NCBI RefSeq assembly: GCF_000023205.1
Contig: NC_012803.1
Location: 1 to 32,000 of the forward strand
DNA length: 32,000 bases
Origin: Micrococcus luteus NCTC 2665
Lineage (GTDB): Bacteria; Actinomycetota; Actinomycetes; Actinomycetales; Micrococcaceae
Reading direction: 5' to 3'
The notes under the pieces are model-generated. The model had not been told where the DNA came from. It saw nothing but the letters and a program-made list of their open reading frames with translations, and did not search any database. Each line of letters opens with the position of its first letter. Within the stretch, counting starts at the first letter, position 1. The position numbers and the translations under genes were made by a program. Shown piece by piece: positions 11,344-30,940 of this stretch.

Positions 11344-11417
11344 GGGCGTATAGCTCAGGCGGTTAGAGCGCTTCGCTGATAACGAAGAGGTCCCAAGTTC
11401 AAGTCTTGGTACGCCCA
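11344..11417 (+). tRNA. tRNA-Ile (anticodon GAT)
   Basis: Manual cloverleaf. Acceptor GGGCGTA/TACGCCC, D stem GCTC/GAGC, anticodon stem CTTCG/CGAAG with loop CTGATAA, T stem CCAAG/CTTGG with loop TTCAAGT. CCA is not encoded. Confidence 0.95.
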
Positions 11418-11475
11418 CTCCCACCACACAGAGCCCCGGTCCGCTGGGGCTCCGTTCGTCTCCGGAGGTCTTCCC

Positions 11476-11644: not shown

Positions 11645-13309
11645 TCACGGGGGCATGGCGCAATTGGTAGCGCACCTGCTTTGCAAGCAGGGGGTTAGGG
11701 GTTCGAGTCCCCTTGCCTCCACCAAAAGGTCGTTGTTCAAACCAGCGACATCACCGGTTTGAGTTCTAGACTCCGCCGTCCGTCCTTGTTGACGGACGGC
11801 GAGGGTCTGGACGTCGGGGTTGAGGAACACGGTGAACGGGACGCCGGGTTCGCCGTGGATGGCGTCTTCGTCTTGGACGATGAGCTTGTCGAAGAAGGCT
11901 TGGTTGGCGATCCGTCGTAGTGAGTCGTCGATGCTCATGTAGATGGCGTGCATGTCGCCTGCGAGGGCGAGGCAGTCGTCCAGGTGGGCTTTCGCTTGGT
12001 CGTACTCGATGTCGCCGGCCTTGATCTGCGCATCGAGGAACACGAGCCGTCGGGCGATGCGACGCTGCTCGGAGCCGAGCAGGTCGAGGGGCACGGCTCC
12101 GGCGTAGTGGGCCTGCATGAGCTTGGTGCGCTCATCGCGGAGCGCGTCGCGTTCGATCTTGTACGCCTGGCGCTCCTGCTTGGCGACGGCGTGGAGCCGG
12201 TCGAACTCGCCGGTGACCAGCTCACGGAGCGCGGTCACGACGTGTTCGGGTATCTGCACCTGTCGGTAGTGGTCCTCGACGGCGGCTTCGATGTCGGGCA
12301 CGAACATGGACTTGCGCTCGCAGTTGGTGCGCTTCGCGTGCCGGCCGGAGCACATGAAGTACGGGTAGACGACCCCGCGGCGGCTCCTGGCGTTGGTCAG
12401 CGTCAGCCGGGACCCGCACTCCCCGCAGTACAGGCTTCCCTTGAGGTAGTGGTCGTGGGATTGAGTCTTCTCTCCAGATGTCTGATGCGCGTTCAGAACG
12501 GCCTGAACTCGGTACCAGACCTCGCGCGCGACCAGGGGTTCGTGGATGCCGTCGTAGCTGGCGCCGCGGAACCGGACGCTGCCCTTGTAGTAGGGGTTGG
12601 TGAGCATTTTGTGGATCGTAGACAGCACCGGCGGCTTGGAGGGCCGCTTCGGGGTGGGCACGGTCGTCAGACCCCGGTCGATCAGCTCCTCACGCAGGCT
12701 GATCGTGGAGTGGTTACCGGTGGCGTAGGCCTCGAACGCCCATCGCACCAGCGGGGCACGGTCGGGGTCCACCTCGACGGTGCGGACCTCGCGGCCGAGT
12801 TCGTCGCGGCGGGTGACGTTGAGGTAGCCCATGGGTGCTTTGCCGTTGGTGCCGCCACTGAGCGCCTTCTGGTTCATGCCCTTGGAGACCTCGCCAGCGA
12901 GGTTGCGGGAGTAGAACTCCGCGATGGTCGACATGATGCCGTGCAGCAGCATCCCCGACGGAGTCTCGTCGATGTTCTCGGTCGCGGAGACGAGCACGAC
13001 CCCGGCCTCTTTGAGGGCGAGGTGGATGGTCACGTCATCGGCGCGGTTGCGGGCGAGCCGGTCGACCTTGTGGACGATGCAGTATGCGACCTGGTGCGTT
13101 TGGACGTACTCGATCATCCGCATCAGTTCGGGCCGGTCGGCCTTGCGGGCGGACTCGCCGGCGTCGATGAACTCCTCGGTGATGACGGCGTTCAGGTCGC
13201 GGGCCTTGCGCAAATTCGCCTCCCGCTGGGCGGGGATCGAGAAGCCCTCGGCACGGCCGCCGCGTTCGGCTTGTTCCTTGGTGGACACGCGCAGGTAGGA
13301 GACGGCCAT
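11645..13309 (-). CDS. Large serine recombinase (integrase of the element)
   Basis: The start was trimmed to the ATG at 13309 (MAVSYLRVSTKEQ, catalytic Ser motif). It has a resolvase domain, a recombinase domain, a zinc ribbon (YCGECGSRL...FMCSGRHAKRTNC) and a coiled-coil region. The reading frame has no stop until 11645, inside antisense tRNA-Ala. Confidence 0.9.
   Translation of the reverse strand: MAVSYLRVSTKEQAERGGRAEGFSIPAQREANLRKARDLNAVITEEFIDAGESARKADRPELMRMIEYVQTHQVAYCIVHKVDRLARNRADDVTIHLALKEAGVVLVSATENIDETPSGMLLHGIMSTIAEFYSRNLAGEVSKGMNQKALSGGTNGKAPMGYLNVTRRDELGREVRTVEVDPDRAPLVRWAFEAYATGNHSTISLREELIDRGLTTVPTPKRPSKPPVLSTIHKMLTNPYYKGSVRFRGASYDGIHEPLVAREVWYRVQAVLNAHQTSGEKTQSHDHYLKGSLYCGECGSRLTLTNARSRRGVVYPYFMCSGRHAKRTNCERKSMFVPDIEAAVEDHYRQVQIPEHVVTALRELVTGEFDRLHAVAKQERQAYKIERDALRDERTKLMQAHYAGAVPLDLLGSEQRRIARRLVFLDAQIKAGDIEYDQAKAHLDDCLALAGDMHAIYMSIDDSLRRIANQAFFDKLIVQDEDAIHGEPGVPFTVFLNPDVQTLAVRQQGRTAESRTQTGDVAGLNNDLLVEARGLEPLTPCLQSRCATNCAMPP
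11649..11724 (+). tRNA. tRNA-Ala (anticodon TGC), CCA encoded
   Basis: Acceptor GGGGGCA/TGCCTCC with the G3:U70 alanine identity pair. Anticodon stem CCTGC/GCAGG with loop TTTGCAA, T arm AGGGG-TTCGAGT-CCCCT, discriminator A followed by CCA. Confidence 0.95.
11774..11801. repeat. 11-bp perfect inverted repeat at the chromosome/element junction
   Basis: cgccgtccgtc (11774-11784), 6-nt loop cttgtt, gacggacggcg (11791-11801). It lies 50 nt after tRNA-Ala and inside the recombinase ORF tail. Confidence 0.9.
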
Positions 13310-13369
13310 GGTGGTGGTCTCACCGATGCGGTCCAGAGCAGTAGTGGCTGGTGGTTGTGTAATGGTCAC

Positions 13370-13538: not shown

Positions 13539-13781
13539 TCAGTCGTTGGCTTCTTGCTGGTCCGATTCTACCTTGCTGTCCCGACATGCGCCGGGAACCG
13601 GCGACACGGCGTCCGGTGCGGGACGGGCGCGGTCTTGTTCGGCGCGGGAGCGGGCCATGCCGATGAACAGTTGCGCGAGCTTGTGCAGGTCGGGTGTCTC
13701 ACGCGGCTCGGCCTCGATCCGGTAGTCCCGTATCCGATCCGGCAGCCGCTCATCCCGGCCGGGCGTATCTGGGCGTGTCAT
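13539..13781 (-). CDS. Hypothetical small protein (80 aa)
   Basis: ATGA start/stop overlap with the upstream gene (13778-13781) suggests translational coupling. No recognisable domain. Confidence 0.5.
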   Translation of the reverse strand: MTRPDTPGRDERLPDRIRDYRIEAEPRETPDLHKLAQLFIGMARSRAEQDRARPAPDAVSPVPGACRDSKVESDQQEAND

Positions 13782-14350
13782 GAGATTTCTCCGGTGCGTT
13801 CATCGAGGGTGCGGAAGAACGCCTCCTCGGCTTCGCGGCGCGCCTCGACTTGTTCGAACACGAACTCCACGAAGTCCTCGCCACGGTCGGCGATGATGAC
13901 GTCCTCGACGGGCGGGGCGGGGTCTTCACCGGGCCAGACGGTCTGCCGGGTGTGCCGGTCGCGGTCCAGGCGGGTGCCGGAGGCCGCGACCCATTCGCGG
14001 AGCCTGTTGCGGGCGTCGGCGAAGTCGCGGTGCCAGCCGACGGGAGCCGAACCGTTCTGTTCGGGGTCGTAGGCGCACAGCCAGTGGATGTGCAGAGCGG
14101 ACAGCTCCCACATCAGTTCGGGGTGTCGGTGCCAGAACGGCGGGATCACCGCAGCGGGGAGCCCGTAGGTGCGGCGAAGCCACGCCACCCAGTCGTTCAG
14201 CGCCAGCCACTCTTGTTCCAGGTCGTGCGCGTTCAGCAGGTTCCAGTTCACCGGGTGCGGCGGCTCCGCCACGTCATCTGATGGGGTATCGGTGCCGGGG
14301 TCGTCGTCCCGGTAGTCGGGTTCGTCTGGTCCGGGGGTGTATTCGTCCAT
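13778..14350 (-). CDS. Conserved hypothetical protein (resembles DUF4913 proteins found next to T4CP genes in actinobacterial elements, from memory)
   Basis: 190 aa with an acidic N-terminus and a Trp-rich core (WLALNDWVAWLRRTYGL...PPFWHRHPELMWELSALHIHW). A gaagggga RBS precedes the ATG at 14350. Confidence 0.7.
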   Translation of the reverse strand: MDEYTPGPDEPDYRDDDPGTDTPSDDVAEPPHPVNWNLLNAHDLEQEWLALNDWVAWLRRTYGLPAAVIPPFWHRHPELMWELSALHIHWLCAYDPEQNGSAPVGWHRDFADARNRLREWVAASGTRLDRDRHTRQTVWPGEDPAPPVEDVIIADRGEDFVEFVFEQVEARREAEEAFFRTLDERTGEIS

Positions 14351-14368
14351 CGTCAGCGTCCCCTTCGG

Positions 14369-14815
14369 TCACATGCTCACGGCCGCAGGCGACTGCGTGA
14401 CGGGGCGGTGCTCGGGGGCGGTGAACGCGGCCGCGTCCCGCTCAGGCGCTGCCCGGCGGGGTGCACGGTCGACGTCGTAGCGGGTGCGGGCCATGTCATG
14501 CCCGAGCCTGCGGGCGACGAACTCCTCACCCTCGACCGCTTGACCGTCGCGTTGGTGGGTGTATTCGCGGACGTAGCCCTCGGCGATGAACTTGTCGCCC
14601 TTCGCAAGTCGTTCGTGGCCCTGCTCTGCGGCGGCCTTGAAGGCGACCAGGTTGTGGAAGGTGGTCTCCAACTGGGTGAACGACCGGTCGTCCTCCTGCC
14701 GGTAGTGTTCCTTGCCGACCTTCATGTACAGCCGGGCATCGCCGTTCTCGGTGCGGGTGAGTTGCGGGTTGGACGCGACGAAGCCCGAGAACGACTGTTG
14801 AGTCTGGATAGCCAT
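14369..14815 (-). CDS. ssb: Single-stranded DNA-binding protein (element-encoded)
   Basis: 148 aa. The N-terminal OB-fold pattern (GFVASNPQLTRTENGDARLYMKV...FHNLVAFKAAAE...LAKGDKFIAEGYV) is typical of SSBs. There is no canonical acidic C-terminal tip. Confidence 0.8.
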   Translation of the reverse strand: MAIQTQQSFSGFVASNPQLTRTENGDARLYMKVGKEHYRQEDDRSFTQLETTFHNLVAFKAAAEQGHERLAKGDKFIAEGYVREYTHQRDGQAVEGEEFVARRLGHDMARTRYDVDRAPRRAAPERDAAAFTAPEHRPVTQSPAAVSM

Positions 14816-14902
14816 CGGAATCCCCTCCTGAAACGCGGCGTCCCCGGATCGGGATCGCTGGTGTCAGACAGGTGCACACCCCACCCCGGCGGGCGCGGCG
14901 GG

Positions 14903-16687
14903 TCAGGAACCAGGGCGACGCAGCAGCGCCTCGATCTCGGCCCGGTCGGTCTTCAGCTGGGCGGCATCGGGCCGAGAAGGCCAGGCGCGTAGGTCGGTGA
15001 CGATCGGTGGTGCGGCGCGGAGGAGGGTGACGCCGGTGCCGAATGGGAGGGTTCTGATTCGGTCTGGCGGGAGGATCGGGACGCGGCGGATGGAGCGTTG
15101 GTTGGAGCGCGTGCCGTGGTCGCCGAGGGTGACGGAATCGGTGTACTCGTCGCGTTCACCGATGAGCGTGCTCAGGTCTTGAAGGTCGCGGGAGTTGGAG
15201 GCGCCGCCAAGGATGATTTTGACGATGCTGGCGTCCCAGATCGCGCTGGCGGCGTTGTCGTTCCACTTGTCCCGTGCTTGGGCGAGGGATTGGAGGACGG
15301 GCAGGGTGGTGATACCGGTACCTCCGCCCTCAGCCATCAACGTCGGTAGGGACGGCAGGGGTGCGAGGTTGCCGATCTCGTCCAGGGCGAGGAGCAGGGG
15401 CGGGTCGAGCCTTGCGCCGGGTGAGCGGGCGGCGATGCGGCGGGCGGTTTCGATGAGGTCTTCGACGAACGCCGCCACTAGCGCGGCGGATGCGCCGGCG
15501 CCCGCGCCGGTAGCGAGGAGGTAGAGCGTGCCGCGGTCGCGGATGAAGGTTTCGGGGTCGAAGCCCTCACCCGGCCCGGGCGACACCGCATCGAGCACAC
15601 GGGGGTCGGCCAGCGCGCCGAGGGCCAGGGCGACGCCCTGCCAGATCGAGTCCCTCGTTTTGGGGTCGGCGTCGATCATCGCTCCGAGGGAGTCCGCCCA
15701 CCCGGTGGCCGCCTGAGTGGTGTTGGTGAGGATGGCGACGGCTTCGGCGGCGGCGGAGGGGTCGAGGGTCCAGCGGAACAGCTCTGCTGGGGGCCGGTGG
15801 TCAAGCGCCGCGGCATGCAGCAGCGCTTGGAGGGCGGTGCGGGTCTTGCCTTCCCAGAAGCCGCCGGATTCGACCCCGCCAGCGGACAGGCCGGTCGCTG
15901 ACGACAGCCCGGTGGCTCGGATCATCGCCGTGAGCGGGTCCTCACAGCCGCGGATGGGTGACCAGCGCATTCCGGCGGGGATGCCTTCGGCGAGGTGTTG
16001 GGGGTCGAACACCGCCACCGGCCGGCCGCCACGCTGCCTCGCGCGGAGGGTGGCCGTGAGGTTGTCCGGCCGGGTCGAGGTGGTGACGACAGCGCCGGGC
16101 GCGTCGAGGATCGCGGGGATGACGATGTGCAGGCCTTTGCCGGAGCGGGGCGGGCCGATGAGCAGGATCGAGTCTTCTACCGACGCCCACACGTCGCGCC
16201 CTTTGGACGCGCCGATCCGATAGCCGACGTCCGACGGCGAGGGATCGGTTAGGGATGCGCGGAGTGTCTCGGCTCGGCGGAGCAGCGCTTTCGCTGAGGC
16301 GCTCTGGGTGATGTCGTGGGCCGTGGCGGTGCCGGCGAGGCGGCGCGGGTCGGTCTCGACCCGGCGGGAATGGCGGCGCAGCCGCACCCACACCCATGCC
16401 CCGGTGGTCACGAGCCCGGCCAGCATCGCCGCGGTGACGATCCAGTATGCGATGGGGTTGAGCCCGTCGGCGTCGAGCGCACCCGCTGGGTCGCCGGGGT
16501 TGAACAGCACTCCGAGCCCGGCTGCGGGGCTGGCCTCGGGTTGGGGTGTGCCAGTCAGGAACGCGGCGACGGAGCCGGAGGCGCGGAGGATGAGCGCGAT
16601 TCCGAACATCCCCATCAGGGCGATGAGCGCGGCGTTGGTCAGCTCGTCGCCAAACGACCCACCCTGCCGCCCCGTTGGGGTACTCAC
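14903..16687 (-). CDS. Type IV coupling protein (VirD4/TraG family)
   Basis: The start was trimmed to the GTG at 16687, a GTGA overlap with the upstream stop. It has two N-terminal TM helices, Walker A LLIGPPRSGKGL and Walker B LLLALDEIGN. The Arg/His-rich N-terminal extension of the track ORF looks non-coding. Confidence 0.9.
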   Translation of the reverse strand: MSTPTGRQGGSFGDELTNAALIALMGMFGIALILRASGSVAAFLTGTPQPEASPAAGLGVLFNPGDPAGALDADGLNPIAYWIVTAAMLAGLVTTGAWVWVRLRRHSRRVETDPRRLAGTATAHDITQSASAKALLRRAETLRASLTDPSPSDVGYRIGASKGRDVWASVEDSILLIGPPRSGKGLHIVIPAILDAPGAVVTTSTRPDNLTATLRARQRGGRPVAVFDPQHLAEGIPAGMRWSPIRGCEDPLTAMIRATGLSSATGLSAGGVESGGFWEGKTRTALQALLHAAALDHRPPAELFRWTLDPSAAAEAVAILTNTTQAATGWADSLGAMIDADPKTRDSIWQGVALALGALADPRVLDAVSPGPGEGFDPETFIRDRGTLYLLATGAGAGASAALVAAFVEDLIETARRIAARSPGARLDPPLLLALDEIGNLAPLPSLPTLMAEGGGTGITTLPVLQSLAQARDKWNDNAASAIWDASIVKIILGGASNSRDLQDLSTLIGERDEYTDSVTLGDHGTRSNQRSIRRVPILPPDRIRTLPFGTGVTLLRAAPPIVTDLRAWPSRPDAAQLKTDRAEIEALLRRPGS

Positions 16688-17247
16688 GACAGCCGCCGCA
16701 CGTGGATAGTGCCCGAGACGCGACCGAACAGCACGACCTCGCTGGCACCATCGGAGGGCAGCGACCGGAGTTGGCGTCGGTCCAGGAGGGCGCGAGCATG
16801 ACCGGTGCTGGTGGCATCGGTGTGGGAGATGATGACCGCGACGGCGATGTCCTCGGCGGGCACGAACCCTTCGCCGGTCACTTCGACCAGGTCCGGCCGC
16901 CGCTTGCTGCTGGCCTTGACCTGCGTGCCCCCTTCGGTGTCGGCCTCGGTGTCTGGTGGTTCGGGTGTGGTGTGGCGGCGGGCGCGGATGATGTCGGTGA
17001 ACACGGTGCCGTCGCTCTCGTGTACCTCGATGCGCACCGTGATGGTCCGGTCCCGGGTGAGCGCGTCCAGCAGGGGCCCGAAGGTGCTCCGCGTCCACGC
17101 GTCGCCTTCCGGTGGTGGGAAAACGGTGCCGTCGAGGGTGACGTCCAGGGCGCCGGTCTCGGTGACGGTGATGACCGCGTGCGGCAGCACGACCGGCGTG
17201 TCATCTGGTTCCGGTCCGGTGGCGTGGCGTGGGGGTTTGCGGTTCAT
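16684..17247 (-). CDS. Hypothetical protein (187 aa)
   Basis: The ATG at 17247 overlaps the TAA of the upstream VirB4-like gene (TAATG), and its stop overlaps the T4CP start. No recognisable domain. Confidence 0.65.
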   Translation of the reverse strand: MNRKPPRHATGPEPDDTPVVLPHAVITVTETGALDVTLDGTVFPPPEGDAWTRSTFGPLLDALTRDRTITVRIEVHESDGTVFTDIIRARRHTTPEPPDTEADTEGGTQVKASSKRRPDLVEVTGEGFVPAEDIAVAVIISHTDATSTGHARALLDRRQLRSLPSDGASEVVLFGRVSGTIHVRRLS

Positions 17248-18734
17248 TACTTCACCCCCGAGGTGAGCCGTGAGCTGGTGTCGAATAGTGCCAGTTCGGC
17301 GGGATGGAGTTGGTGCTGGGTGACGAAGGCCCGGTCCTTGATGCGCCACAGTCCCTGCCCGATGCCCAACGATGGGAGCAGTTTCTGCTCGGTGCCGGTC
17401 AGACCGAGGGCCTGGGCGGTGGGGCCGAGCTGATCGGATTCTTGCCGGTAGACGATCCGGGTCTCGGCATTGGCCAGCAGACTGTTCGCGAGGGAGCGCA
17501 TGGCGGAGCCGGCGTCGCCGACGTTGTCCAAGTCGGAGAGTTTGTGGAAGATCAGCATGTTCGCGATCCCGTAATGCCGCGCGAGCCGCCAGTGCGCGTC
17601 CATCCGCTTCAACAGCGCGGGGTGGGACATCAGCCGCCACGCTTCGTCGTAGATCACCCACCGCTGCCCGCCGTTGGGGTCCAGCAGCGCGGACTCCATC
17701 CACGCCGACGAACACGTCATCAATACCGAAATGAGGGTGGAGTTCTCGGTGACGCGGGACAGGTCGAGGCTGATCATCGGCAGGCTCGGGTCGAACCGGA
17801 CCGTGCTGGGGCCATCGAACAGGCCGGCGAGGTCACCGGCGACCAGACGGCGCAGCGCGTGGCCGACGAGCCGCCCGTCCTCAGCGAGCCTGGCGTCGGC
17901 GGCCGCGTCCGGGGCGAGGATGCGGTCGACGACCATCGGCAGGATCGGCACAGTGTTCTCCGTGACAACTGCGGTGAGGGCAAGGTCGATCGCCGTGTGC
18001 TCCAAGGGCGTCAACCCGCGTGCCAGGACGGTCTCGGCCAGAGCGCCGATGAGGTCACGGCGGCGGGACGCGACCGTGATCGCCCACTCCTGATCCGACA
18101 GCCCGGTGGGCCGGTGGCCTTCATCGAGGGGGTTGAGGCGTGTGTTCAGGCCGTGGCCGAGAACTATTGCCCGTCCGCCGACTGCGTTCGCGACGGCGGT
18201 GTGCTCGCCCTTCGGATCACCGGGGACGTACACGCGCCGCCCGAACGGCAGCGACCGCGTATAGAGCGACTTCGCCAGGGAGGACTTGCCCGAGCCCACG
18301 ATGCCCGCGAGGACGACGTTGGGGGCGGTGATCATCCCGCGGGCGTAGAGCACCCAGGGGTCGTAGACGAACGAGCCGCCGGAGTAGAGGTCTAGACCGA
18401 CGAATACCCCCTCGGAGCCGAGGCCGCCTTCGGCGACGAACGGATAGGCACCCGCGAGGGTCGCGGAGGTGTCCTGGTGGCGAGGGAGGTGGAACCCGCC
18501 CGGGGTGCGCAGCGCTGTAGGGCCGGGCTCACCGGCCGCGGGTAGGTAGGTGGTGGCTCTGCGTTCGGCCCGTTCGGTCTCGGCTTTCTCCCTGGCCGCG
18601 GCCTGCTCGGTACGGTGCTGCTCGGCTTGGAGGCGTGCAGCGGCCTGTTTGCGTTGTTTGCGGAGTCGGCGACGGTCGTCGGTCGGGGCGACCAGGACCG
18701 AGGTGTGCAGACGTTCGGGCTCGCGCGTGCTCAT
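17247..18734 (-). CDS. VirB4-like conjugation ATPase (short form)
   Basis: 495 aa with Walker A LAGIVGSGKSS and Walker B RWVIYDEAWRL. The N-terminus is a charged coiled segment (RKQRKQAAARLQAEQHRTEQAAAREKAETERAERR) rather than a canonical VirB4 N-terminal domain. Confidence 0.88.
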   Translation of the reverse strand: MSTREPERLHTSVLVAPTDDRRRLRKQRKQAAARLQAEQHRTEQAAAREKAETERAERRATTYLPAAGEPGPTALRTPGGFHLPRHQDTSATLAGAYPFVAEGGLGSEGVFVGLDLYSGGSFVYDPWVLYARGMITAPNVVLAGIVGSGKSSLAKSLYTRSLPFGRRVYVPGDPKGEHTAVANAVGGRAIVLGHGLNTRLNPLDEGHRPTGLSDQEWAITVASRRRDLIGALAETVLARGLTPLEHTAIDLALTAVVTENTVPILPMVVDRILAPDAAADARLAEDGRLVGHALRRLVAGDLAGLFDGPSTVRFDPSLPMISLDLSRVTENSTLISVLMTCSSAWMESALLDPNGGQRWVIYDEAWRLMSHPALLKRMDAHWRLARHYGIANMLIFHKLSDLDNVGDAGSAMRSLANSLLANAETRIVYRQESDQLGPTAQALGLTGTEQKLLPSLGIGQGLWRIKDRAFVTQHQLHPAELALFDTSSRLTSGVK

Positions 18735-19597
18735 AGCGACAACCCCCGCCCGACCGATCCTGAGGAGCGGGCCGGACCGGCGAACCAGTCCGGCTCCGCT
18801 CCCACCGGGACCTGCCTTGTCCGCGCGGACGCTGGCGTCACTGCGGTCCGGGGCGTGCTCGGATCGAGTGACCCGACGCCGCTGATGGCCTCACGCGCTG
18901 TCGCAACGTCGGTCTCGTCCAGGCCCGGGTCGGGTAGGGCGCCGGGGTGTGCCCGGAGCAGATTGATGTGCCCCATGAACGGGTTGTAGGTGAGCGTGTA
19001 GTCGCCGTCCGTGACGACCCGGTCGAGCTGCCCGGTGGGTGGTTCGTCGTAGACGTACCCGTTCTCCAGTGCCGCGTCGGTGGTCTCGTCCCCGTAGTCC
19101 CAGTTCTTCAGGTGCTCGATGGCGGCGTCGGGGCCGTCGCGGCCGATGAGGTCGAGCACTTCGTCGGCTTCTGAGCCTTGGAGGAAGACGACGCTGAGCC
19201 AGCGCCGCGATGCTTCCGTGGACACTGCTTCCCGGTCGACCTCCTGCGCTGGGGCGTGCCAGGCGATGCGTCCGGAATGGATCATCGCGGCATTGACTCG
19301 CTCCTCGACTCCATCGAGGAGCGTTCCGGCGTGGTGCAGGTCGTCTGCGGCCGCGAGGGCTTCGGAGGCACCGATCGCTTGGTCACCGTCATCGTCGTGA
19401 GCGCGGCCGCGATGAACGAGATGCGTGGAGCCGACCTGATCGAGTACCTGGCGCAGCGACCGGATGCCCGAGAGGAGGTCGCCGAGCACGCTGTAGGTGT
19501 CGGCAGGGTTGTCGAAGGTACGGCTGGCGTGCGCGAGCCCGCGCAGCGCCTCGGATGCTTCGCCAGCATCCTGGAGTGGGTCGTGATACGTGGGCAT
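18731..19597 (-). CDS. Hypothetical protein (288 aa)
   Basis: The ATG at 19597 lies 3 nt after the aggaggccg RBS (19601-19609). ATGA overlap with the VirB4-like start. No TM segment or known motif recognised. Confidence 0.65.
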   Translation of the reverse strand: MPTYHDPLQDAGEASEALRGLAHASRTFDNPADTYSVLGDLLSGIRSLRQVLDQVGSTHLVHRGRAHDDDGDQAIGASEALAAADDLHHAGTLLDGVEERVNAAMIHSGRIAWHAPAQEVDREAVSTEASRRWLSVVFLQGSEADEVLDLIGRDGPDAAIEHLKNWDYGDETTDAALENGYVYDEPPTGQLDRVVTDGDYTLTYNPFMGHINLLRAHPGALPDPGLDETDVATAREAISGVGSLDPSTPRTAVTPASARTRQVPVGAEPDWFAGPARSSGSVGRGLSL

Positions 19598-19700
19598 GAG
19601 CGGCCTCCTGTGACAAGCGCGAAGCCCCGGGCATCGGGGTCGACTGTCAGGTGCACGCGCGCCCACACGCCGCGAGGACCGGGGTGTGTGTGCGGGGCGG

Positions 19701-21164
19701 TCAGATGCGGCGGCACAGGGGCAGGGCGGCGGCGGTGAACGCGGCCGCCTGTTGTCCGACGAGCAGCCGGGTTTCACAGGAGGCTTGGATCGCGGCCTGC
19801 TCAATTGCCGCGACACCGGCCTCCAGCTCCTCGACGCTGGGTGCGGAGACGCTGATGAGGCCGGTGAACCGCAGCACCCCGTGGCCGGCGGTCAGGTCCG
19901 CCTCCTGCTGGAGTACGTCGTGGTACTCGGCGGTCTGGGTGGCGTCTTCGATCTGCCCGATCTTCGCCCGCTGAGCGGCGTCGGAGATGTGCTCGACCTT
20001 CTTCTTGCGGATGTCCCGGGCGGCTTGGTCCGAACGCATCGGCGTGCACAGCAGCGAGAACGAGCGTTGGATGCCGGTGGACAGCAGCACCGGGGACAGG
20101 AACCCGGGGTAGACCATCGAGCGCGGCCACTCGCTGATCCACAGCACCGCGTGGTGGGCGGAGTCGGTGCGCAGGCGGCCCCAGGACTCGTTGACGGCGA
20201 CGGGACCGGCGGTAGCCAGGTGCTGGCCGAGTTCGCCGTGGCGCTCCAGGGTCGCGGCGATCGCCGGGTCATACGCGCTGCGCAGGATCACCGCGATCTG
20301 TCCCGGGCTCAGCCATCCCGCGGGCTTCAGGTCGGCTGAGCGCAGCGCCGCGGTGAGGGTTGACATTTCTTGGCGCAGGACGGCGGCGGCCCCGCGGATG
20401 CCGCCACCGGCGGTCCTGATCTGCCGGGCAGCGGTCTTCATATCCAGCGACAGGGACAGGGTGGTGGCGTGTCGTTCCCCGGCCGGCCCGGCACGCTCGA
20501 TGAGTTCGGCATAGGTGGTTGCGGCCCAGCTGTCGTCGGCGGTGCCGTGGGAGGCCCACCATTCAGCGAGCCCGGTACCGGAGTCCGACAGCGTCCGTTC
20601 CAGGACTTGCAGTGTAGCGATTCGTCCGGAGCGGCACACCGTGGCCAGCACGCGGCCCCAGGAGGTGACGCGGCGTTCCTGCTCGCCCGGGTCCAGGAGC
20701 ACGAACGCGGGATGGGTCACCTCGCAGACCACGGTGAGGGTCGCGGCGTGGGGGTCGTGGATCATCCCGGCCCCGGTGTCGGTGTCGGTGTACTCGCGCA
20801 GTCGCGCCATGTCACCGGGCAGCGCGAGCGTCCCGGCCGGCCGGGGTGCCACGATGCGGCGCCGATAGAGAAGTTGCCCGCAGGTGCTGCGCCACAGCCA
20901 CCAGCACGCGACCGGTAGCCATTCCACGGCCGGGCGTCCGGCGACGGGTACCCAGGTCAGGGCGGCGGCGAGCACCCAGACGGGTGCGGTGTAGGCCAGC
21001 AGGATGCCACCGCCGGCATAGAGGGCGCCGACGACGGCGAGGACGCCGGTGGCGAGGGTGATGAGCTGGGCCAGGGACAGGCCGAGGAGGATGCCGCGAC
21101 GGGTGAGCCGGGAGAACTTGACCGGCACCAGCTCGGTGGAGGACTCCTTCTGCTTCGTGGTCAT
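19701..21164 (-). CDS. Conjugation membrane protein (resembles the SCO6880 family of actinobacterial T4SS clusters, from memory)
   Basis: The start was trimmed to the ATG at 21164 (MTTKQKESSTELVPVKFSRLTRRGILLG). It has two N-terminal TM helices followed by a soluble domain of about 400 aa. Confidence 0.75.
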   Translation of the reverse strand: MTTKQKESSTELVPVKFSRLTRRGILLGLSLAQLITLATGVLAVVGALYAGGGILLAYTAPVWVLAAALTWVPVAGRPAVEWLPVACWWLWRSTCGQLLYRRRIVAPRPAGTLALPGDMARLREYTDTDTGAGMIHDPHAATLTVVCEVTHPAFVLLDPGEQERRVTSWGRVLATVCRSGRIATLQVLERTLSDSGTGLAEWWASHGTADDSWAATTYAELIERAGPAGERHATTLSLSLDMKTAARQIRTAGGGIRGAAAVLRQEMSTLTAALRSADLKPAGWLSPGQIAVILRSAYDPAIAATLERHGELGQHLATAGPVAVNESWGRLRTDSAHHAVLWISEWPRSMVYPGFLSPVLLSTGIQRSFSLLCTPMRSDQAARDIRKKKVEHISDAAQRAKIGQIEDATQTAEYHDVLQQEADLTAGHGVLRFTGLISVSAPSVEELEAGVAAIEQAAIQASCETRLLVGQQAAAFTAAALPLCRRI

Positions 21165-21171
21165 GGCCGTC

Positions 21172-22650
21172 TCAGTCCTTCCCGGTCGGCTTCGGTGCCG
21201 GCGGCGGGGCCGGCTTCGGCGCAGGTGGCGCCGGTTGTGAGGGACCCGCCGACGGCGTCTTCGGCTCAGCAGGAGACGGAGCCTTCGTGGTCGGTGCGGA
21301 TGACGTCCGGGACGCCGCAGGAGGGGGTGTGGCGCCGGTCTGCCCGGCACTGTCGGCGGCGGCCTCGCCCTGGTTCCCGAGGGCCGTGCCGGCCTTCGGA
21401 CCGGCGGTCGCCGCGTCCTTGGCGACCTTCGCCGCGATGACCGCCGCTGCGGCAGGACCAGCCGCAGCAGCACCCCCACTCGCCGTACCCGCGCCGGCAC
21501 CACCACTTGCTCCTGCGCCGGCTCCGGCGGACCCACCCGCGGTGCCGGCGCCTCCGGCAGCACTCGCCCCGCCCCCGGATGCCTGGGGTGCGGAGGTCTT
21601 TGGCTGGGGCGGCGTCTTCCCTCCGGCTCCACTGCCGCCTCCGCCACCGCTCTCGTTGCCGCCGCTATTGCCGCCGTCGAGGACCTTCTGGGGGCCGTCG
21701 CCGGCTGGTTTCGTCGGGGTGGGGACGGGCCGGTTGAGGGCCTGTTTGGCGTCTTGTTCGGAGCCGATCGCGTGGTACATGTCGAACCCGATGAAGCTGA
21801 TGAACTTGTAGGTCAGGTAGGGGGCGAACGCGGCCATCGCCATCAGCACGATCCCCGCCAGCGGGTCACTGATCGAGGTCAGGTCCGCATCGATCGGTGC
21901 CGAAACCTGGGTGATGGCGACCAGGAACATCAAGACCAGGACGAGCTTGGAGCAGATCAGCGCGATGACGAACATCGCCCACTTGCCGATCCACCCCCTG
22001 CTGGCGTCCCACGACGCACCGGAGAACGCCAGGGGTGCGAACACGATCGCCACCAGCAACAGCGCCTTGCGCACGAGCAGCGACAGCCACACGATCGCGG
22101 CAGCGGCGATCGCCAAGCCGGCGAGGAAGATCGTGATGATCGCCCCCACCCCGGGGGCGGCGATGTTGATCCCGACCAGGCCCGCGGCGAGGAGGGTGAT
22201 CTTGTCGCCCATGGACGCGGTGGTTTCCCCGGCAGCCTGGATGACCCCGACACAGAGCTGGTCGACGATCTCCAGCAGCAACGCCGTCAGCGTGATCACC
22301 ACGAACGAGCCGAGCACGGACTTCGCCAACCCGAGGGCGGCCCGAGACAGGGCGGTGGGGTCGCGGCGGATCAGGCCGGTGAGCAGTTGGAGGCAGAAGA
22401 AGATCAGCATCACGAACACGGCGATGCCGAACAGCAGGTTGTAGACCGCCACATACTCGGGCCGGGTGACGTCGACGAGCGTGGTGGTGTCGAACACGGA
22501 CCACACTGCCTCGAACAGCCAGCCGGCGGCAGCGCCCATCGCTTGGGCGAGCCAGTCGAACGGTGCCGCCACCAGGGACGCGGCGGCTTCGCCGGCGGTG
22601 TCGCACACGGCCGAGATGACGGGGATATCGCATACTCCCACCGCAATCAC
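21172..22650 (-). CDS. VirB6/TrbL-like polytopic membrane protein with a Gly/Ala/Pro-rich tail
   Basis: 492 aa with at least 6 predicted TM helices in residues 1-300. Residues from about 305 to 492 are low complexity. The start is uncertain: the GTG at 22650 abuts the AGGAG, while the GTG at 22641 has better spacing. Confidence 0.75.
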   Translation of the reverse strand: MIAVGVCDIPVISAVCDTAGEAAASLVAAPFDWLAQAMGAAAGWLFEAVWSVFDTTTLVDVTRPEYVAVYNLLFGIAVFVMLIFFCLQLLTGLIRRDPTALSRAALGLAKSVLGSFVVITLTALLLEIVDQLCVGVIQAAGETTASMGDKITLLAAGLVGINIAAPGVGAIITIFLAGLAIAAAAIVWLSLLVRKALLLVAIVFAPLAFSGASWDASRGWIGKWAMFVIALICSKLVLVLMFLVAITQVSAPIDADLTSISDPLAGIVLMAMAAFAPYLTYKFISFIGFDMYHAIGSEQDAKQALNRPVPTPTKPAGDGPQKVLDGGNSGGNESGGGGGSGAGGKTPPQPKTSAPQASGGGASAAGGAGTAGGSAGAGAGASGGAGAGTASGGAAAAGPAAAAVIAAKVAKDAATAGPKAGTALGNQGEAAADSAGQTGATPPPAASRTSSAPTTKAPSPAEPKTPSAGPSQPAPPAPKPAPPPAPKPTGKD

Positions 22651-22678
22651 TCCTTCGGGATCGAGTCAGCGGTTGGTG

Positions 22679-23017
22679 TCAGACCTGTTGGCCGACGTCC
22701 CAGAAGAAGTTGATCAACGTCACGCTGGCGCCGCAGATCACCGCGGCTCCGCAGCTCACGAGGACGCCCATCTTTCCGCGGCCGGCGAGGTGGGGGTTGG
22801 AGGAGTTCGCGCCGAAGCCCCACACGATCGCGGAGATGATCAGCGCGAGCACCGACAGGATCAGGCCGACGGTCATCACCGCGCCGACGATCGTGCGCAG
22901 CTGGGCGATGCCCGGTAGACCGGAATCGTTGGGGGTGATGTCGACATCCATCGGCACCAGCACGGGCAGCGCGGCGAGTGTGGTGGCGGCGTCGGTGATC
23001 AGGGTCAGGGCGTTCAT
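22679..23017 (-). CDS. Small two-TM membrane protein, VirB2/TrbC pilin-like (paralog 1)
   Basis: 112 aa with a strong RBS (aaggag, 8-nt spacer, ATG at 23017). A 22-aa hydrophobic leader precedes a core that aligns with paralog 2. Confidence 0.7.
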   Translation of the reverse strand: MNALTLITDAATTLAALPVLVPMDVDITPNDSGLPGIAQLRTIVGAVMTVGLILSVLALIISAIVWGFGANSSNPHLAGRGKMGVLVSCGAAVICGASVTLINFFWDVGQQV

Positions 23018-23098
23018 GGCGGGTGCTCCTTAGGCAAGCGAGGACAGGGGTTCTCGCTGTTCAGGTGCACGGCTGTCACCAGTTCGTAGGATGGTCAG

Positions 23099-23701
23099 GT
23101 GGAGATCGAGACGGTGCGGGCTGCGTACGCGCGACGTGCCGGTGAGTACATCGCCCGACTCGGGTCTATCGATGCCACGGCGCTAGCAGATCAGGACTTG
23201 ATCAACGCGTGGGGGCGTAGTGTCCATGGGCCTGTCCTGGACGTCGGGTGCGGACCCGGTCACTGGGCAAGCTTCCTGAACCAGACCGGTGTCAAGGTAA
23301 CGGGGATCGATCCGGTGCCTGAGTTCATCGACGACGCCCGCGCCCGGTTCCCGGACGTCGCCTTTCGGGTTGGACGGGCCGAGGCCCTCGACGTGTACGA
23401 CGCCAGCGTGGGCGGCATCCTGGCGTGGTACTCACTGATTCACACCGACCCGTCACAGCTGACTGCGGTGTTCGGCGAGTTTGCCCGGGTGCTGCGACCC
23501 GGCGGCAGCATTCTGGTGGGCTTCTTCGCCGGTGTGGACCTGACCCGGTTCGACCACGCGGTGACCACCGCCTACTTTTGGCCCCCGCACATGCTCAGCG
23601 CGGTGATCGAGGACGCAGGTTTCAGTGTGATTGCCTCGCATACGCGGACCGACCCCGGGCGCGCGCATGGTGACGTCAAAGCCCACCGTCTCCGGTGGTG
23701 A
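23099..23701 (+). CDS. Class I SAM-dependent methyltransferase (small-molecule type)
   Basis: 200 aa with motif I VLDVGCGPGHW, post-I TGIDP and motif II/III region GGILAWYSLIH...LRPGGSILV. It is the only + strand gene inside the ICE. Confidence 0.85.
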   Translation: MEIETVRAAYARRAGEYIARLGSIDATALADQDLINAWGRSVHGPVLDVGCGPGHWASFLNQTGVKVTGIDPVPEFIDDARARFPDVAFRVGRAEALDVYDASVGGILAWYSLIHTDPSQLTAVFGEFARVLRPGGSILVGFFAGVDLTRFDHAVTTAYFWPPHMLSAVIEDAGFSVIASHTRTDPGRAHGDVKAHRLRW

Positions 23702-23704
23702 CGC

Positions 23705-23971
23705 TTACATCGTCTGGCCGAGGTCGATGAGCCAGTTCATCCACGCCACTCCGGCACCGGCCAGGATCGCGGTGCCGAGGGCGACGAGGACACCGGTGCG
23801 GCCCTTCCCTGCTGCACTGTAGTTGCCGTTCGCGGCGGCGATGGCCCAGATGATGGCGGAGACGATCAGCATCAGGACGCTGGTGATGAGCACGAACGTC
23901 AGCAGCGCGCCGATCACTGCGCGCAGGTCATCGATCCCGCCGATCCCGCCGAAGTCAGGGAACACGTCCAT
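23705..23971 (-). CDS. Small two-TM membrane protein, VirB2/TrbC pilin-like (paralog 2)
   Basis: The start was trimmed to the ATG at 23971 (MDVFPDFGGIGGIDDLRAVIGALLTF). 88 aa, aligning along its whole length with residues 23-112 of paralog 1. Confidence 0.7.
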   Translation of the reverse strand: MDVFPDFGGIGGIDDLRAVIGALLTFVLITSVLMLIVSAIIWAIAAANGNYSAAGKGRTGVLVALGTAILAGAGVAWMNWLIDLGQTM

Positions 23972-23976
23972 GCCGC

Positions 23977-25641: not shown

Positions 25642-25656
25642 GAGCGCACCTCCGGC

Positions 25657-26355: not shown

Positions 26356-26394
26356 ACCCCGTAGGCGCACGACCACGCCCCGCCCTTGGTGCGG

Positions 26395-28301: not shown

Positions 28302-28401
28302 GGTTGGGGCACCTCCTGACAGGCAGGTGCGCACGCCGTCCCCAACGACGACGTTTGCGCTGCCTGCCTCGGCGGTGCTCATGACCTCTCACCTGCTCAG
28401 C

Positions 28402-30930: not shown

Positions 30931-30940
30931 CAGCGCCACC

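What the first reader, a model, noticed from the sequence alone, without database searches (positions are those of the whole stretch)
11645..11830. The serine recombinase ORF runs across the element/chromosome junction and only stops inside antisense tRNA-Ala
The recombinase frame (start 13309) has no stop codon before 11645. Its last 25 or so codons (VEARGLEPLTPCLQSRCATNCAMPP) are the reverse complement of an intact, canonical tRNA-Ala (11649-11724, G3:U70, CCA encoded). The ileT-alaT pair after gyrA/Rv0007 is conserved chromosomal synteny in Actinobacteria, so the tRNA belongs to the host. The recombinase C-terminus therefore appears to depend on integration state, because in an excised circle the ORF would continue into the other element end. 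Genes that span attP and change their C-terminus on integration are known in mycobacteriophages with integration-dependent immunity. Convergent transcription into the tRNA gene is a further consequence. Serine recombinases integrating flush with a tRNA 3-prime end are less usual than tyrosine integrases doing so.
Basis: partly seen in the sequence, partly recalled or inferred. Interest (0 to 1): 0.7.

Follow-up and report, generated by a model that had tools for sequence, protein, structure and literature searches.

The report
Recombinase gene that spans its attachment site
A mobile element sitting next to a tRNA gene carries an integrase gene with no stop codon of its own. Integrated, the protein ends in about 24 meaningless residues read off the back of the tRNA; excised, related elements show it would gain a conserved 90-residue DNA-binding tail. 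So the enzyme's form depends on where the element sits.

Summary
The large serine recombinase ORF (window 13309/13369 down to 11645, minus strand) has no stop before the element/chromosome junction. It reads the whole tRNA-Ala(TGC) gene (11649-11724) in antisense and stops at TGA 11647-11645. That is just beyond the tRNA 5' end, not inside it.

This is a family trait, not an accident. In 64 other actinobacterial loci, homologues (54-92% identical) run into the antisense 3' end of 13 different tRNA genes; three more lie next to tmRNA. All diverge exactly at one Val codon that overlaps the discriminator base.

In nine complete small elements, joining the two ends puts the recombinase in frame with a conserved ~90-aa module at the far end: helix, acidic linker, resolvase-type HTH. 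Database proteins carry this fusion.

The crossover maps to tRNA positions 71-74, most likely A73-C74 (window 11721-11722). The element's last ~45 bp mimic an inverted T-arm, and the host flank shows no conserved motif.

The window element's right end lies beyond base 32000, so its own tail was not seen.

A 2011 paper noted the same overlap for Dehalococcoides dsiB at ssrA but did not resolve it. I rate this a new variant of a known kind. The function of the tail is inferred, not shown.

The parts
11344..11418 (+). Host tRNA-Ile(GAT), first gene of the chromosomal tRNA-Ile/tRNA-Ala pair
   Evidence: ARAGORN. The same pair sits next to homologous recombinases in L008 and L010.
11649..11724 (+). 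Host tRNA-Ala(TGC). Its acceptor 3' strand and T-arm form the specific B' half of the attachment site. The T-arm motif lies at 11701-11707, which is 14-20 bp from the centre.
   Evidence: ARAGORN. Junction alignment of 64 loci anchored on the discriminator base.
11719..11722 (.). Crossover core, tRNA C71-C72-A73-C74 (GTGG on the recombinase strand). The most probable 2-bp crossover is A73-C74 = 11721-11722. This is the attL junction; the element lies to the right.
   Evidence: The minimal sequence shared by attL and attR in nine complete elements is GTGG. In 57 unique attR flanks, position -1 is G in 57/57 while -2 and beyond are unconserved. tRNA-Pro, Arg and Leu targets differ at +1/+2.
11645..11647 (-). 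Stop codon (TGA) used in the integrated state. It lies 2 nt beyond the tRNA-Ala 5' end.
   Evidence: Sequence; ORF list.
11648..11719 (-). Integrated-state C-terminal tail, residues 531-554 (EARGLEPLTPCLQSRCATNCAMPP), encoded by the antisense of tRNA-Ala. It is host-derived, and in relatives it varies with the tRNA.
   Evidence: Tail length in 63 loci is 1-383 codons, median 20.
11723..11767 (.). Left end of the element, the P arm of attP. It encodes the linker ...QTGDVAGLNNDLL.
- Inner inverted T-arm mimic GTTCAAACC at 11735-11743, at the same distance from the centre as the tRNA T-arm.
- Outer inverted copy GGTTTGA at 11756-11762.
- It also supplies the CCA end (11722-11724).
   Evidence: attL is palindrome-like about the centre in all clades; sequence. 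AlphaFold2 of homologue P0025 gives pLDDT below 50 for this stretch, so it is a disordered linker.
11776..11799 (.). Perfect GC-rich hairpin CCGTCCGTC-CTTGTT-GACGGACGG inside the ORF, 55-78 bp from the crossover. Its role is unknown; it could be a terminator for tRNA read-through or an accessory site.
   Evidence: Hairpins occur at similar places in relatives, but a fixed-register covariation test was negative.
11645..13369 (-). Large serine recombinase gene with no stop codon of its own. The probable start is GTG 13369; ATG 13309 is the first ATG. The catalytic motif YLRVST has its Ser at residue 9 counted from the ATG.
   Evidence: Pfam PF00239, PF07508, PF13408. PDB sequence hits to TP901-1, phiC31 and A118 integrases. 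Homologues 54-92% identical. AlphaFold2 of homologue shows the catalytic, recombinase and zinc-ribbon domains plus long coiled-coil helices.
13539..32000 (-). Body of a T4SS-type actinobacterial conjugative element that continues past the window end:
- 80-aa ORF 13539-13781
- DUF4913-like 13778-14350
- SSB 14369-14815
- TraG/VirD4 coupling protein 14903-17098
- VirB4-like ATPase 17247-18734
- SCO6880-family protein 19701-21647
- M23 peptidase 23977-25641
- ParB-like 26395-27405
   Evidence: Pfam; NCBIfam. No tail homologue and no second tRNA fragment occur in the window.

Best explanation
The window holds the left junction (attL) of a T4SS-type conjugative element. A large serine recombinase inserted it at the very 3' end of host tRNA-Ala, at the discriminator/C74.

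The attachment site attP lies inside the 3' end of the recombinase reading frame. The gene therefore has two products.
- Integrated state: translation passes Val530 into host DNA, adds 24 arbitrary residues from the antisense tRNA, and stops at the first stop it meets.
- Circular (or tandem-array) state: in relatives, the same frame continues into a conserved ~90-aa module at the opposite end of the element. That module is a short basic helix, an acidic linker and a three-helix resolvase-type HTH.

Target recognition rests on the generic tRNA 3' end (T-arm plus acceptor strand). The element's own last ~45 bp copy this in inverted form, and the host flank contributes nothing conserved. This explains why close relatives sit at many different tRNAs and at tmRNA.

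Inferred, not shown: an element-borne promoter can drive the HTH module only in the circular form. The long isoform is therefore the one acting on attP x attB in a new host. Its amputation on integration changes what the enzyme can do, so DNA state and enzyme form are coupled.
For: 1. ORF and tRNA geometry in the window.
2. 64 genome loci: the recombinase frame runs into antisense Ala (three anticodons), Lys, Val (two), Arg (three), His, Pro, Leu or Asp tRNAs. In 62/64 the frame is open for at least 450 codons upstream. tmRNA lies at the recombinase 3' end in L021 and L022 and about 1 kb beyond it in L058.
3. Proteins 90-92% identical to the window's diverge exactly after ...NNDLLV, according to the tRNA.
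4. Fused forms P0025, P0037, P0015 and P0107 have no tRNA nearby.
5. The tail profile finds 406 proteins, nearly all 88-158 aa. They are conserved from V[DE]AME onward, with unrelated N-terminal extensions. There are 199 clusters at 50% identity with E<=1e-10, and about 25 of the best 145 carry recombinase C-terminal sequence fused in frame.
6. In nine complete elements the reconstructed attP is in frame.
7. In 57 unique attR flanks, information falls to about 0 bits upstream of position -2, while -1 is G in 57/57.
8. attL is symmetric about the centre, and the P' arm motif GGGAAC lies 5 bp further out than the tRNA's CGAAC, as in classical serine-integrase attP versus attB.
9. AlphaFold2: the recombinase is folded to about residue 533 (P0025 numbering) and then disordered across the junction. 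The tail is a helix, a linker and a confident HTH.
Against: - The right end of this particular element is outside the window, so its tail type (A, B or C) and frame are unverified.
- No circular contig was recovered, and no family member occurs in plasmid records. Some attP-type junctions are demonstrably tandem arrays, not circles (L109, L112, L136, L149, L157).
- The tail has a mostly conserved Met at codon 4 (84%), so it could also be made as a free protein.
- One tail-C example (L065) shows a frame change between linker and HTH.
- The P arm has the short (attB-type) spacing, not the long one expected for a canonical attP arm.
- The AlphaFold2 fusion model gives no confident contact between tail and enzyme.
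- No expression or activity data exist.
Confidence: 0.72

Rival explanations
1. Incidental read-through. attP merely happens to lie at the end of the recombinase gene. The HTH module is an independent small gene, starting at the Met at codon 4 or at the GTG of the junction codon. The in-frame fusion and the tRNA-encoded tail have no functional meaning. The recombinase is complete at about residue 513-530 in both states.
For: - The folded enzyme ends before the junction, and the junction region is predicted disordered.
- Integrated tails vary from 1 to 383 codons with no common sequence.
- Met at tail codon 4 is present in 84%.
- Many gene callers annotate an 88-aa free protein.
- McMurdie 2011 listed a similar 'trivial explanation' for dsiB.
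Against: - No stop codon separates the two reading frames in any intact attP-type junction seen. This holds across at least four recombinase clades and three unrelated tail types, although a single base change would create one.
- Tail type B has no Met at all (P0037).
- In the integrated state the tail ORF starts at the very element boundary with no conserved upstream DNA (0 bits). It has no element-borne promoter or ribosome site there.
Confidence: 0.2
2. The element is a decayed, immobile remnant. The recombinase lost its own stop codon by mutation, and the open frame into the tRNA is an accident of high GC content.
For: At 70% GC, stop codons are rare, so long accidental open frames are common (many spurious ORFs). 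Two of 64 relatives (L018, L057) do have interrupted frames.
Against: - The window ORF is intact, with all three domains and 92% identity to the best homologue.
- The same stop-less arrangement holds in 62/64 loci spanning 54-92% identity.
- Conjugation genes in the window are intact.
Confidence: 0.04
3. The crossover lies inside the tRNA (T-loop or anticodon loop, as for tyrosine integrases). The element would then supply a replacement tRNA 3' half, so that the antisense-tRNA codons belong to the element in both states.
For: This is the usual arrangement for tRNA-targeting elements. [quoted passage not shown]
Against: - Recombinases about 90% identical sit at tRNAs whose acceptor stems differ directly after the Val codon.
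- attR junctions carry no tRNA fragment; only 4-8 bp are shared with attL.
- There is no second copy of the tRNA-Ala 3' part in the window.
Confidence: 0.03

Closest known systems
Dehalococcoides ssrA genomic-island integrase DsiB (CcrB-like large serine recombinase; McMurdie et al. 2011, PMC3146451)
   Same: [quoted passage not shown] The target is the tRNA-like 3' end of ssrA. Tandem islands occur. The authors speculated that the enzyme is fully functional only on the circular element or next to an adjacent island that supplies the 3' fragment. Relatives of the window's enzyme also sit next to tmRNA genes.
   Different: - Phylum Chloroflexi rather than Actinomycetota.
- Insertion is placed in the T-loop, with a 20-bp direct repeat.
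- It is paired with a second small recombinase, DsiA; none of the window ORFs I scanned has a second resolvase domain.
- There is a single target, ssrA.
- The missing 3' fragment was never identified.
- Sequence relatedness to the window's protein was not tested here.
Archaeal SSV1-type ('suicidal') integrases (PMC7253208, PMC8371274)
   Same: attP lies inside the integrase reading frame, and integration into a tRNA gene splits the gene.
   Different: They are tyrosine recombinases. The split separates essential parts of the enzyme, so the integrated copy is inactive. Here the catalytic, recombinase, zinc-ribbon and coiled-coil parts all stay intact, and only a C-terminal add-on is lost.
Mycobacteriophage integration-dependent immunity (BPs, Brujita, Charlie; Broussard et al. 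2013, from my own knowledge)
   Same: attP lies inside a gene, so the integrated and free forms encode proteins with different C-termini and different behaviour.
   Different: There the split gene is the repressor, and the integrase is a tyrosine enzyme with a degradation tag. Here the split gene is the serine recombinase itself, and no degradation tag is evident.
Canonical large serine integrases (phiC31, Bxb1, A118/LI, TP901-1, SPbeta SprA)
   Same: Same domain order. Short att sites with a very short shared core. The zinc-ribbon motif lies 5 bp further from the centre in a phage-type arm than in a host-type arm.
   Different: From general knowledge, in those systems attP lies outside the integrase gene, attB is a specific two-armed site, and direction is set by a separate factor. 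Here only one arm of attB is specific, the P arm has host-type spacing, and an extra HTH module is attached only in the attP configuration.
Other serine recombinases at tRNA genes (phage phiRSM1 at tRNA-Ser; Mycobacterium AICEs at one tRNA-Leu; Ghinet et al. 2011, PMC3218068)
   Same: A serine recombinase integrates at a tRNA gene, which that paper describes as rare.
   Different: Each of those uses a single tRNA. This family uses at least 13 tRNA genes plus tmRNA.
Engineered integrase-directionality-factor fusions (Olorunniji et al. 2017, from my own knowledge)
   Same: A serine integrase covalently joined at its C-terminus to a small accessory protein that changes which pair of sites it recombines.
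   Different: Those fusions are man-made, and their tails are known directionality factors. Whether the natural tail here has such activity is untested.

Membership tests
Large serine recombinase (serine integrase) | N-terminal resolvase-type catalytic domain with the nucleophilic serine | tested here: met
   PF00239, E=2.5e-29, residues 2-153; motif YLRVST. PDB hits to the TP901-1 and phiC31 catalytic domains.
Large serine recombinase (serine integrase) | Recombinase domain followed by a zinc-ribbon domain with an embedded coiled coil | tested here: met
   PF07508 (182-272) and PF13408 (289-349). The AlphaFold2 model of homologue P0025 shows long paired helices at 375-471, pLDDT above 90.
Large serine recombinase (serine integrase) | Short att sites with a 2-bp crossover and no long identity between attP and attB | tested here: met
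   attL and attR of nine complete elements share only 4-8 bp; the minimal core is GTGG. There is a sharp information drop at -2 in 57 attR flanks.
Large serine recombinase (serine integrase) | Both attP arms long and both attB arms short (5-bp offset of the outer motif) | tested here: inconclusive
   The P' arm motif lies 5 bp further out than the tRNA arm, as expected. The P arm, however, has the same short spacing as the tRNA arm, and the host flank has no motif.
Large serine recombinase (serine integrase) | Catalyses attP x attB recombination | not testable with these tools
   Needs an in vitro or in vivo assay.
T4SS-type integrative conjugative element of Actinomycetota | Coupling protein, VirB4-like ATPase and integrase in one block next to an att junction | tested here: met
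   TraG-D_C / T4SS-DNA_transf at 14903-17098. VirB4-like at 17247-18734 and SCO6880 family at 19701-21647. Recombinase at the junction.
T4SS-type integrative conjugative element of Actinomycetota | Relaxase and a second boundary (attR) | not testable with these tools
   The window ORFs I scanned gave no relaxase hit, and the window holds no tail homologue. The element runs off the window. The related locus L003 has a TrwC relaxase next to the recombinase.
DsiB-type ssrA-island integrases | Serine recombinase ORF overlapping attL, with the stop codon outside the island | tested here: met
   compared with the text of PMC3146451.
DsiB-type ssrA-island integrases | Target ssrA T-loop with a 20-bp direct repeat; partner small recombinase DsiA | tested here: not met
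   The target here is tRNA-Ala at positions 71-74, with a 4-bp core. None of the window ORFs I scanned has a second resolvase domain.
DsiB-type ssrA-island integrases | Sequence relatedness to DsiB | not tested
   The DsiB sequence was not retrievable with these tools.
SSV-type split integrases | Tyrosine recombinase fold and catalytic residues | tested here: not met
   The protein is a serine recombinase.
SSV-type split integrases | attP inside the integrase ORF; tRNA target | tested here: met
Integration-dependent immunity systems | attP inside the repressor gene, with a C-terminal degradation tag removed by integration | tested here: not met
   The split gene is the recombinase. The integrated tails have no common C-terminal sequence.

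The most novel reading that the evidence does not exclude
The HTH tail may be a built-in directionality module, which would make the DNA configuration itself select the enzyme isoform. The biological attP (one short arm, one long arm) and attB (one specific short arm) are 'hybrid-type' sites, and attL is a symmetric host-type site. In that reading, integration would be the reaction that normally needs a directionality factor, and the tail fused in the circular form would supply it. The short isoform made in the chromosome would carry out excision unaided. Such a switch would be self-contained, with no separate excisionase, and would also be a natural generic 'any tRNA 3' end' integrase.
Probability: 0.2. 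Interest if true: 0.9.

Novelty: new variant of a known kind. Interest (0 to 1): 0.72.

Why it matters
Serine integrases are valued genome-engineering tools because a single protein and two short sites suffice. Their direction is normally set by a separate protein.

In this widespread actinobacterial family the enzyme's C-terminus is rewritten by the recombination event itself. That is a possible natural way to couple direction to DNA state, and a testable answer to the question left open for Dehalococcoides dsiB in 2011.

The family also appears to recognise the generic 3' end of tRNAs through a T-arm mimic in its own attP. This would explain its broad target and host range, and it suggests an integrase with ready-made landing sites in any bacterium.

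For annotation, these recombinase ORFs (variable ends, overlap with tRNAs) and the orphan 88-aa 'HTH proteins' at island ends are two halves of one gene. Together they mark both island boundaries to the base.

Tried and rejected
- Second copy of the tRNA-Ala 3' part or long terminal repeats in the window: none.
- Tail homologue inside the window: none, so attP of this element could not be rebuilt.
- Circular contigs among all fetched loci (terminal overlaps of 20-200 bp): none.
- Family members or tails in plasmid records: none closer than about 33% identity, and no tail hit.
- Deep alignment for AlphaFold2 combining recombinases and free tails: MAFFT placed the tails at the N-terminus (A4, A5). 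The fusion was therefore modelled with almost no tail depth, and the tail came out at low confidence with no usable docking.
- Foldseek of the tail against the PDB: only weak generic HTH and resolvase hits, E>=0.28.
- NCBIfam gives no name for the tail. Pfam gives only sub-threshold HTH_7, HTH_38 and HTH_23 hits.
- Hairpin at 11776-11799:
  - RNAalifold found no consensus structure.
  - A fixed-register pair count was no better than shuffled or slid controls: 43% paired.
  - The tRNA-sense strand folds more stably, but so does the antisense strand everywhere else in the gene. This is a base-composition effect.
- Literature: eight full-text searches found no description of this family or of a serine recombinase split from an HTH tail. 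They did find the Dehalococcoides precedent.
- Rejected readings: assembly artefact, pseudogene, and intra-tRNA crossover (see rivals).
Full report
**1. What is in the window**

ARAGORN finds two tRNA genes on the plus strand: tRNA-Ile(GAT) at 11344-11418 and tRNA-Ala(TGC) at 11649-11724. To their left lie chromosomal genes:
- a DUF3566 membrane protein, the Rv0007-type neighbour, at 10743-11243;
- a 53-codon ORF between the two tRNAs, 11476-11637.

To the right, on the minus strand, is an ORF running from 13408 to 11645. From the ATG at 13309 it gives 554 aa. It has the three domains of a large serine recombinase: Resolvase 2-153, Recombinase 182-272 and Zn_ribbon_recom 289-349. It gives sequence hits to the solved TP901-1, phiC31 and A118 integrases. 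Homologues carry about 20 more N-terminal residues, so the real start is probably GTG 13369.

Further right are conjugation genes:
- SSB;
- a TraG/VirD4 coupling protein;
- a VirB4-like ATPase;
- an SCO6880-family protein;
- an M23 peptidase;
- a ParB-like protein.

This is the left part of a T4SS-type conjugative element that runs off the window.

**2. The observation**

The recombinase frame has no stop before the tRNA. Its last residues, V-EARGLEPLTPCLQSRCATNCAMPP, are the antisense of tRNA-Ala. The Val530 codon (11722-11720) covers C74, A73 and C72.

The stop TGA is at 11647-11645, two bases beyond the tRNA 5' end. The frame therefore crosses the entire tRNA rather than stopping inside it.

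**3. It is a family trait**

A protein search gave thousands of relatives. The best 120 are 57-92% identical and cover 64-100% of the query, most of them at least 96%. Their C-termini are conserved up to a motif ending in Val (...GLNNDLLV...GSSLVRGV and similar). After that they split into many different sequences of the type E.RG[LF]EP.. or GP.G[LI]EPTT... These are antisense translations of the T-arms of different tRNAs.

I fetched 80 genome loci from Actinomycetota, including Nocardioides, Antrihabitans, Microbacterium, Leucobacter, Brevibacterium, Propionibacteriaceae and Nesterenkonia. In 64 of them the recombinase 3' end overlaps an antisense tRNA:

| tRNA | Loci |
|---|---|
| Lys(ttt) | 13 |
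| His(gtg) | 11 |
| Ala(cgc) | 9 |
| Ala(tgc) | 6 |
| Ala(ggc) | 6 |
| Val(tac) | 6 |
| Val(cac) | 4 |
| Arg (three anticodons) | 6 |
| Pro, Leu, Asp | 1 each |

A tmRNA gene lies at the recombinase 3' end in two further loci (L021, L022) and about 1 kb beyond it in a third (L058).

In 62 of the 64 loci the frame is open for at least 450 codons upstream of the junction. The number of codons from the junction to the stop ranges from 1 to 383, with a median of 20. Proteins 90-92% identical to the window's abut tRNAs with different acceptor stems. The tRNA body is therefore host DNA, and the junction sits at the Val codon.

**4. The other half of the gene**

A few relatives have a different tail. 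P0025 (640 aa), P0037 (627 aa), P0015 (713 aa) and P0107 continue past ...LV into about 90-160 residues that end in a helix-turn-helix. Pfam gives weak HTH_7, HTH_38 and HTH_23 hits. Their contigs have no tRNA, and cargo or defence genes follow the recombinase.

A profile of the P0025 and P0037 tails found 406 proteins, almost all 88-158 aa. They are conserved from V[DE]AMEHYGNRRPRVERLVSAWNQG... to ...GVHRGTVWAKTR. Their N-terminal extensions are either unrelated sequence or recognisable recombinase C-ends (for example NDDVLV|DAME and SSLVRAV|GVMEHYG).

An exhaustive profile search gave 199 clusters at 50% identity with E<=1e-10. About 25 of the best 145 carry recombinase sequence fused in frame upstream of the tail.

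**5. Both ends in one locus**

Neomicrococcus aestuarii CP018135 (L005) holds a complete 9.4-kb element:
- At one end, the tail ORF begins MPQDTTN|VDAMEHSG...
- At the other end, the recombinase ends ...TLWV|ELTGIEPLTFSLRTKRSTN* inside antisense tRNA-Ala(cgc).

Among 80 metagenome loci fetched with the tail, I found more complete small elements. In nine elements, joining attL-left to attR-right keeps the frame. The excised form would carry a 90-115 aa HTH tail where the integrated form carries 12-41 tRNA-antisense residues. Eight of the nine have an intact recombinase frame of more than 570 codons.

**6. Where the crossover is**

I number positions on the recombinase strand, with 0 as the complement of the discriminator base A73. 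That is the T of the Val codon, window 11721.
- The only sequence always shared by attL and attR is GTGG, positions -1 to +2, which is tRNA C71-C74.
- In 57 unique attR flanks the information content is about 0 bits upstream of -2. Position -1 is G in 57/57, -2 is G in 38/57 and -3 is T in 26/57, as expected when some hosts encode CCA. The left limit of exchange is therefore -1.
- On the attL side, tRNA-Pro has C at +1, and Arg, Leu and some Lys tRNAs have C at +2. The known P' arms read GTGGAC. I did not see the attR of those particular elements.

The most economical reading is a GT crossover (A73-C74; window 11721-11722). C72-A73 cannot be excluded. The CCA end in the window (11722-11724) is thus probably supplied by the element.

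**7. Site architecture**

attL is palindrome-like about this centre in every clade. The element's last ~45 bp contain an inverted copy of the T-arm motif. That copy lies at the same 14-20 bp distance from the centre as the tRNA's own TTCGAAC.

| Clade | Inverted T-arm copy | Codons it forms |
|---|---|---|
| Window's clade | GGTTTGAAC (window 11735-11743) | G-L-N |
| Second clade | GGGTTCGAGCC | G-S-S-L |
| His clade | AGTTCAAACC | not determined |

The conserved C-terminal peptide motifs of these enzymes therefore seem to be shaped largely by the DNA site they encode. AlphaFold2 of P0025 agrees: the enzyme is confidently folded to about residue 533, and the stretch over the junction has pLDDT below 50.

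The tail-side arm (P') has GGGAAC, the codons G-N of the invariant GNRR. This lies 5 bp further out than the tRNA's CGAAC, and tail type C has GAGAACC at the same place. That 5-bp offset is the classical difference between phage-type and host-type half-sites of serine integrases (general knowledge of the LI/A118 structures).

Two features are not classical. The P arm has host-type spacing, and the host flank has no motif at all.

The first ~60 bp of the tail are also more conserved at third codon positions than the rest: 1.52 versus 1.14 bits.

**8. Tandem arrays**

In L109, L112, L136, L149 and L157, a recombinase or its remnant lies directly upstream of the tail of a second element. That second element in turn ends in its own recombinase; in L109, L112 and L136 it abuts a tRNA. 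The intact tRNA half of attL therefore seems to remain a usable target. It also means that an attP-type junction in a database is not proof of a circle. No circular contig was found, and the family is absent from plasmid records.

**9. The tail as a protein**

With a 50-sequence alignment, AlphaFold2 predicts a helix (residues 7-19, RRPRVERLVSAWN), a disordered acidic linker, and a confident three-helix HTH at 53-87. Foldseek gives only weak matches, led by the C-terminal parts of Tn3, gamma-delta and Sin resolvases and by transposase HTH domains.

**10. How it most likely works**

*Shown*
- The gene spans attP, and the two DNA states encode different C-termini.
- The tRNA-derived tail is arbitrary.
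- The other tail is a conserved HTH module.
- Only the tRNA side of the target is specific.

*Inferred*
- The tail ORF begins at the very boundary of the element, and no conserved DNA lies upstream of it in the integrated state. Only the circular (or tandem) configuration puts it behind an element promoter.
- The long isoform should therefore be the form present when the element arrives in a new cell and must integrate. Integration then removes the module.
- The module might add DNA binding on the long P' arm, act like a covalently attached directionality factor, or simply be tolerated. I cannot tell which.

*Main rival (about 0.2)*

The fusion may be incidental, with the tail an independent small gene. 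Met at tail codon 4 is present in 84%. Against this:
- no stop separates the frames in any intact attP-type junction, across at least four recombinase clades and three tail types;
- tail type B has no Met at all.

**11. Relation to what is known**

- Ghinet et al. 2011 call serine-recombinase integration into tRNA genes rare.
- The closest precedent is McMurdie et al. 2011 on Dehalococcoides ssrA islands. [quoted passage not shown] The authors speculated that it may be fully functional only on the circular element or beside an adjacent island supplying the 3' fragment. I found no follow-up.
- Archaeal SSV-type tyrosine integrases also carry attP inside the gene and split on integration into tRNAs.
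- Mycobacteriophage integration-dependent immunity splits the repressor gene instead (my own knowledge).

New here:
- the missing half is identified as a defined, widespread HTH module;
- the crossover is mapped to the discriminator base;
- the T-arm mimic in attP is described;
- the target range covers at least 13 tRNA genes plus tmRNA, in hundreds of actinobacterial genomes and metagenomes.

I file it as a new variant of a known kind.

**12. Limits**

- The right end of this element is beyond the window, so its own tail is inferred from relatives.
- There are no activity, expression or circular-form data.
- The exact 2-bp crossover is deduced from comparisons.
- The hairpin at 11776-11799 is real in this sequence, but a conserved homologous structure could not be demonstrated.

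Noticed in passing
window 11476-11637 (+): A 53-codon ORF (MGRLARVALVVGAAAAAYGARLWRENSAGKDVWATATDDLPEDADGVEPAPED) lies between tRNA-Ile and tRNA-Ala, with a hydrophobic N-terminal stretch and an acidic tail. Its stop is only 8 nt from the recombinase stop on the other strand. It has no Pfam or NCBIfam hit.
   Followed up: partly
window 11776-11799: A perfect 9-bp-stem GC-rich hairpin lies inside the recombinase ORF, 55-78 bp from the crossover. Relatives have strong hairpins at about the same place with different sequences, but no common register. A covariation test was negative, and the apparent strand preference proved to be a base-composition effect.
   Followed up: yes
window 13309-13369 (-): Homologues start about 20 codons upstream of the first ATG (consensus MT..L...GETT.LAVSY). 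The window has GTG at 13369, preceded by a purine-rich stretch, so the recombinase is probably 574 aa, not 554.
   Followed up: partly
L109, L112, L136, L149, L157 (recombinase or remnant | tail junctions): These are tandem arrays. A second small element sits directly downstream of a resident recombinase or its remnant and gives it a new in-frame tail; in L109, L112 and L136 that second element ends at a tRNA. Some upstream recombinases carry stop codons.
   Followed up: partly
L021 2455-2822, L022 11583-11950, L058 12493-12859: Members of the same recombinase family lie next to tmRNA (ssrA) genes, with tails of the type VEVAGIEPAS... In L021 and L022 the tmRNA overlaps or abuts the recombinase 3' end. 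In L058 it lies about 1 kb beyond the truncated match. This links the family to the Dehalococcoides ssrA-island case.
   Followed up: partly
L075, L080, L082, L085, L086 (tRNA-His junctions): In the tRNA-His clade, some junctions create a stop codon exactly at the crossover (..LG* from TTG GGG TGA). There the integrated protein ends flush with the element.
   Followed up: no
L014 11586-12391: In Ornithinimicrobium murale, the recombinase runs into a tRNA array (Arg-Pro-Val-Ile, all antisense). A tail-C-like ORF begins right after the array. This suggests a second element inserted at another tRNA of the same array.
   Followed up: no
attR/attP loci, positions +19 to +58 from the crossover (e.g. 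L005 10042-10081): The tail-side arm holds an imperfect inverted repeat, CGGGAACAGG ... CTGGTTTCCG, about 20 bp apart. It is conserved at synonymous positions. The window's P arm has a comparable pair (TCAAACC 11737-11743 / GGTTTGA 11756-11762). These may be accessory binding sites.
   Followed up: partly
L065 1701-2174: In this tail-C attP-type junction, the linker and the HTH part match the tail-C query in different frames. This is either a frameshift or a sequencing error in the MAG. The recombinase frame nevertheless stays open to 2174.
   Followed up: no
P0273, P0303, P0321, P0368: The tail profile also hits long proteins (700-950 aa) made of 9-12 tandem copies of a similar HTH unit. They appear unrelated to the recombinase system.
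   Followed up: no
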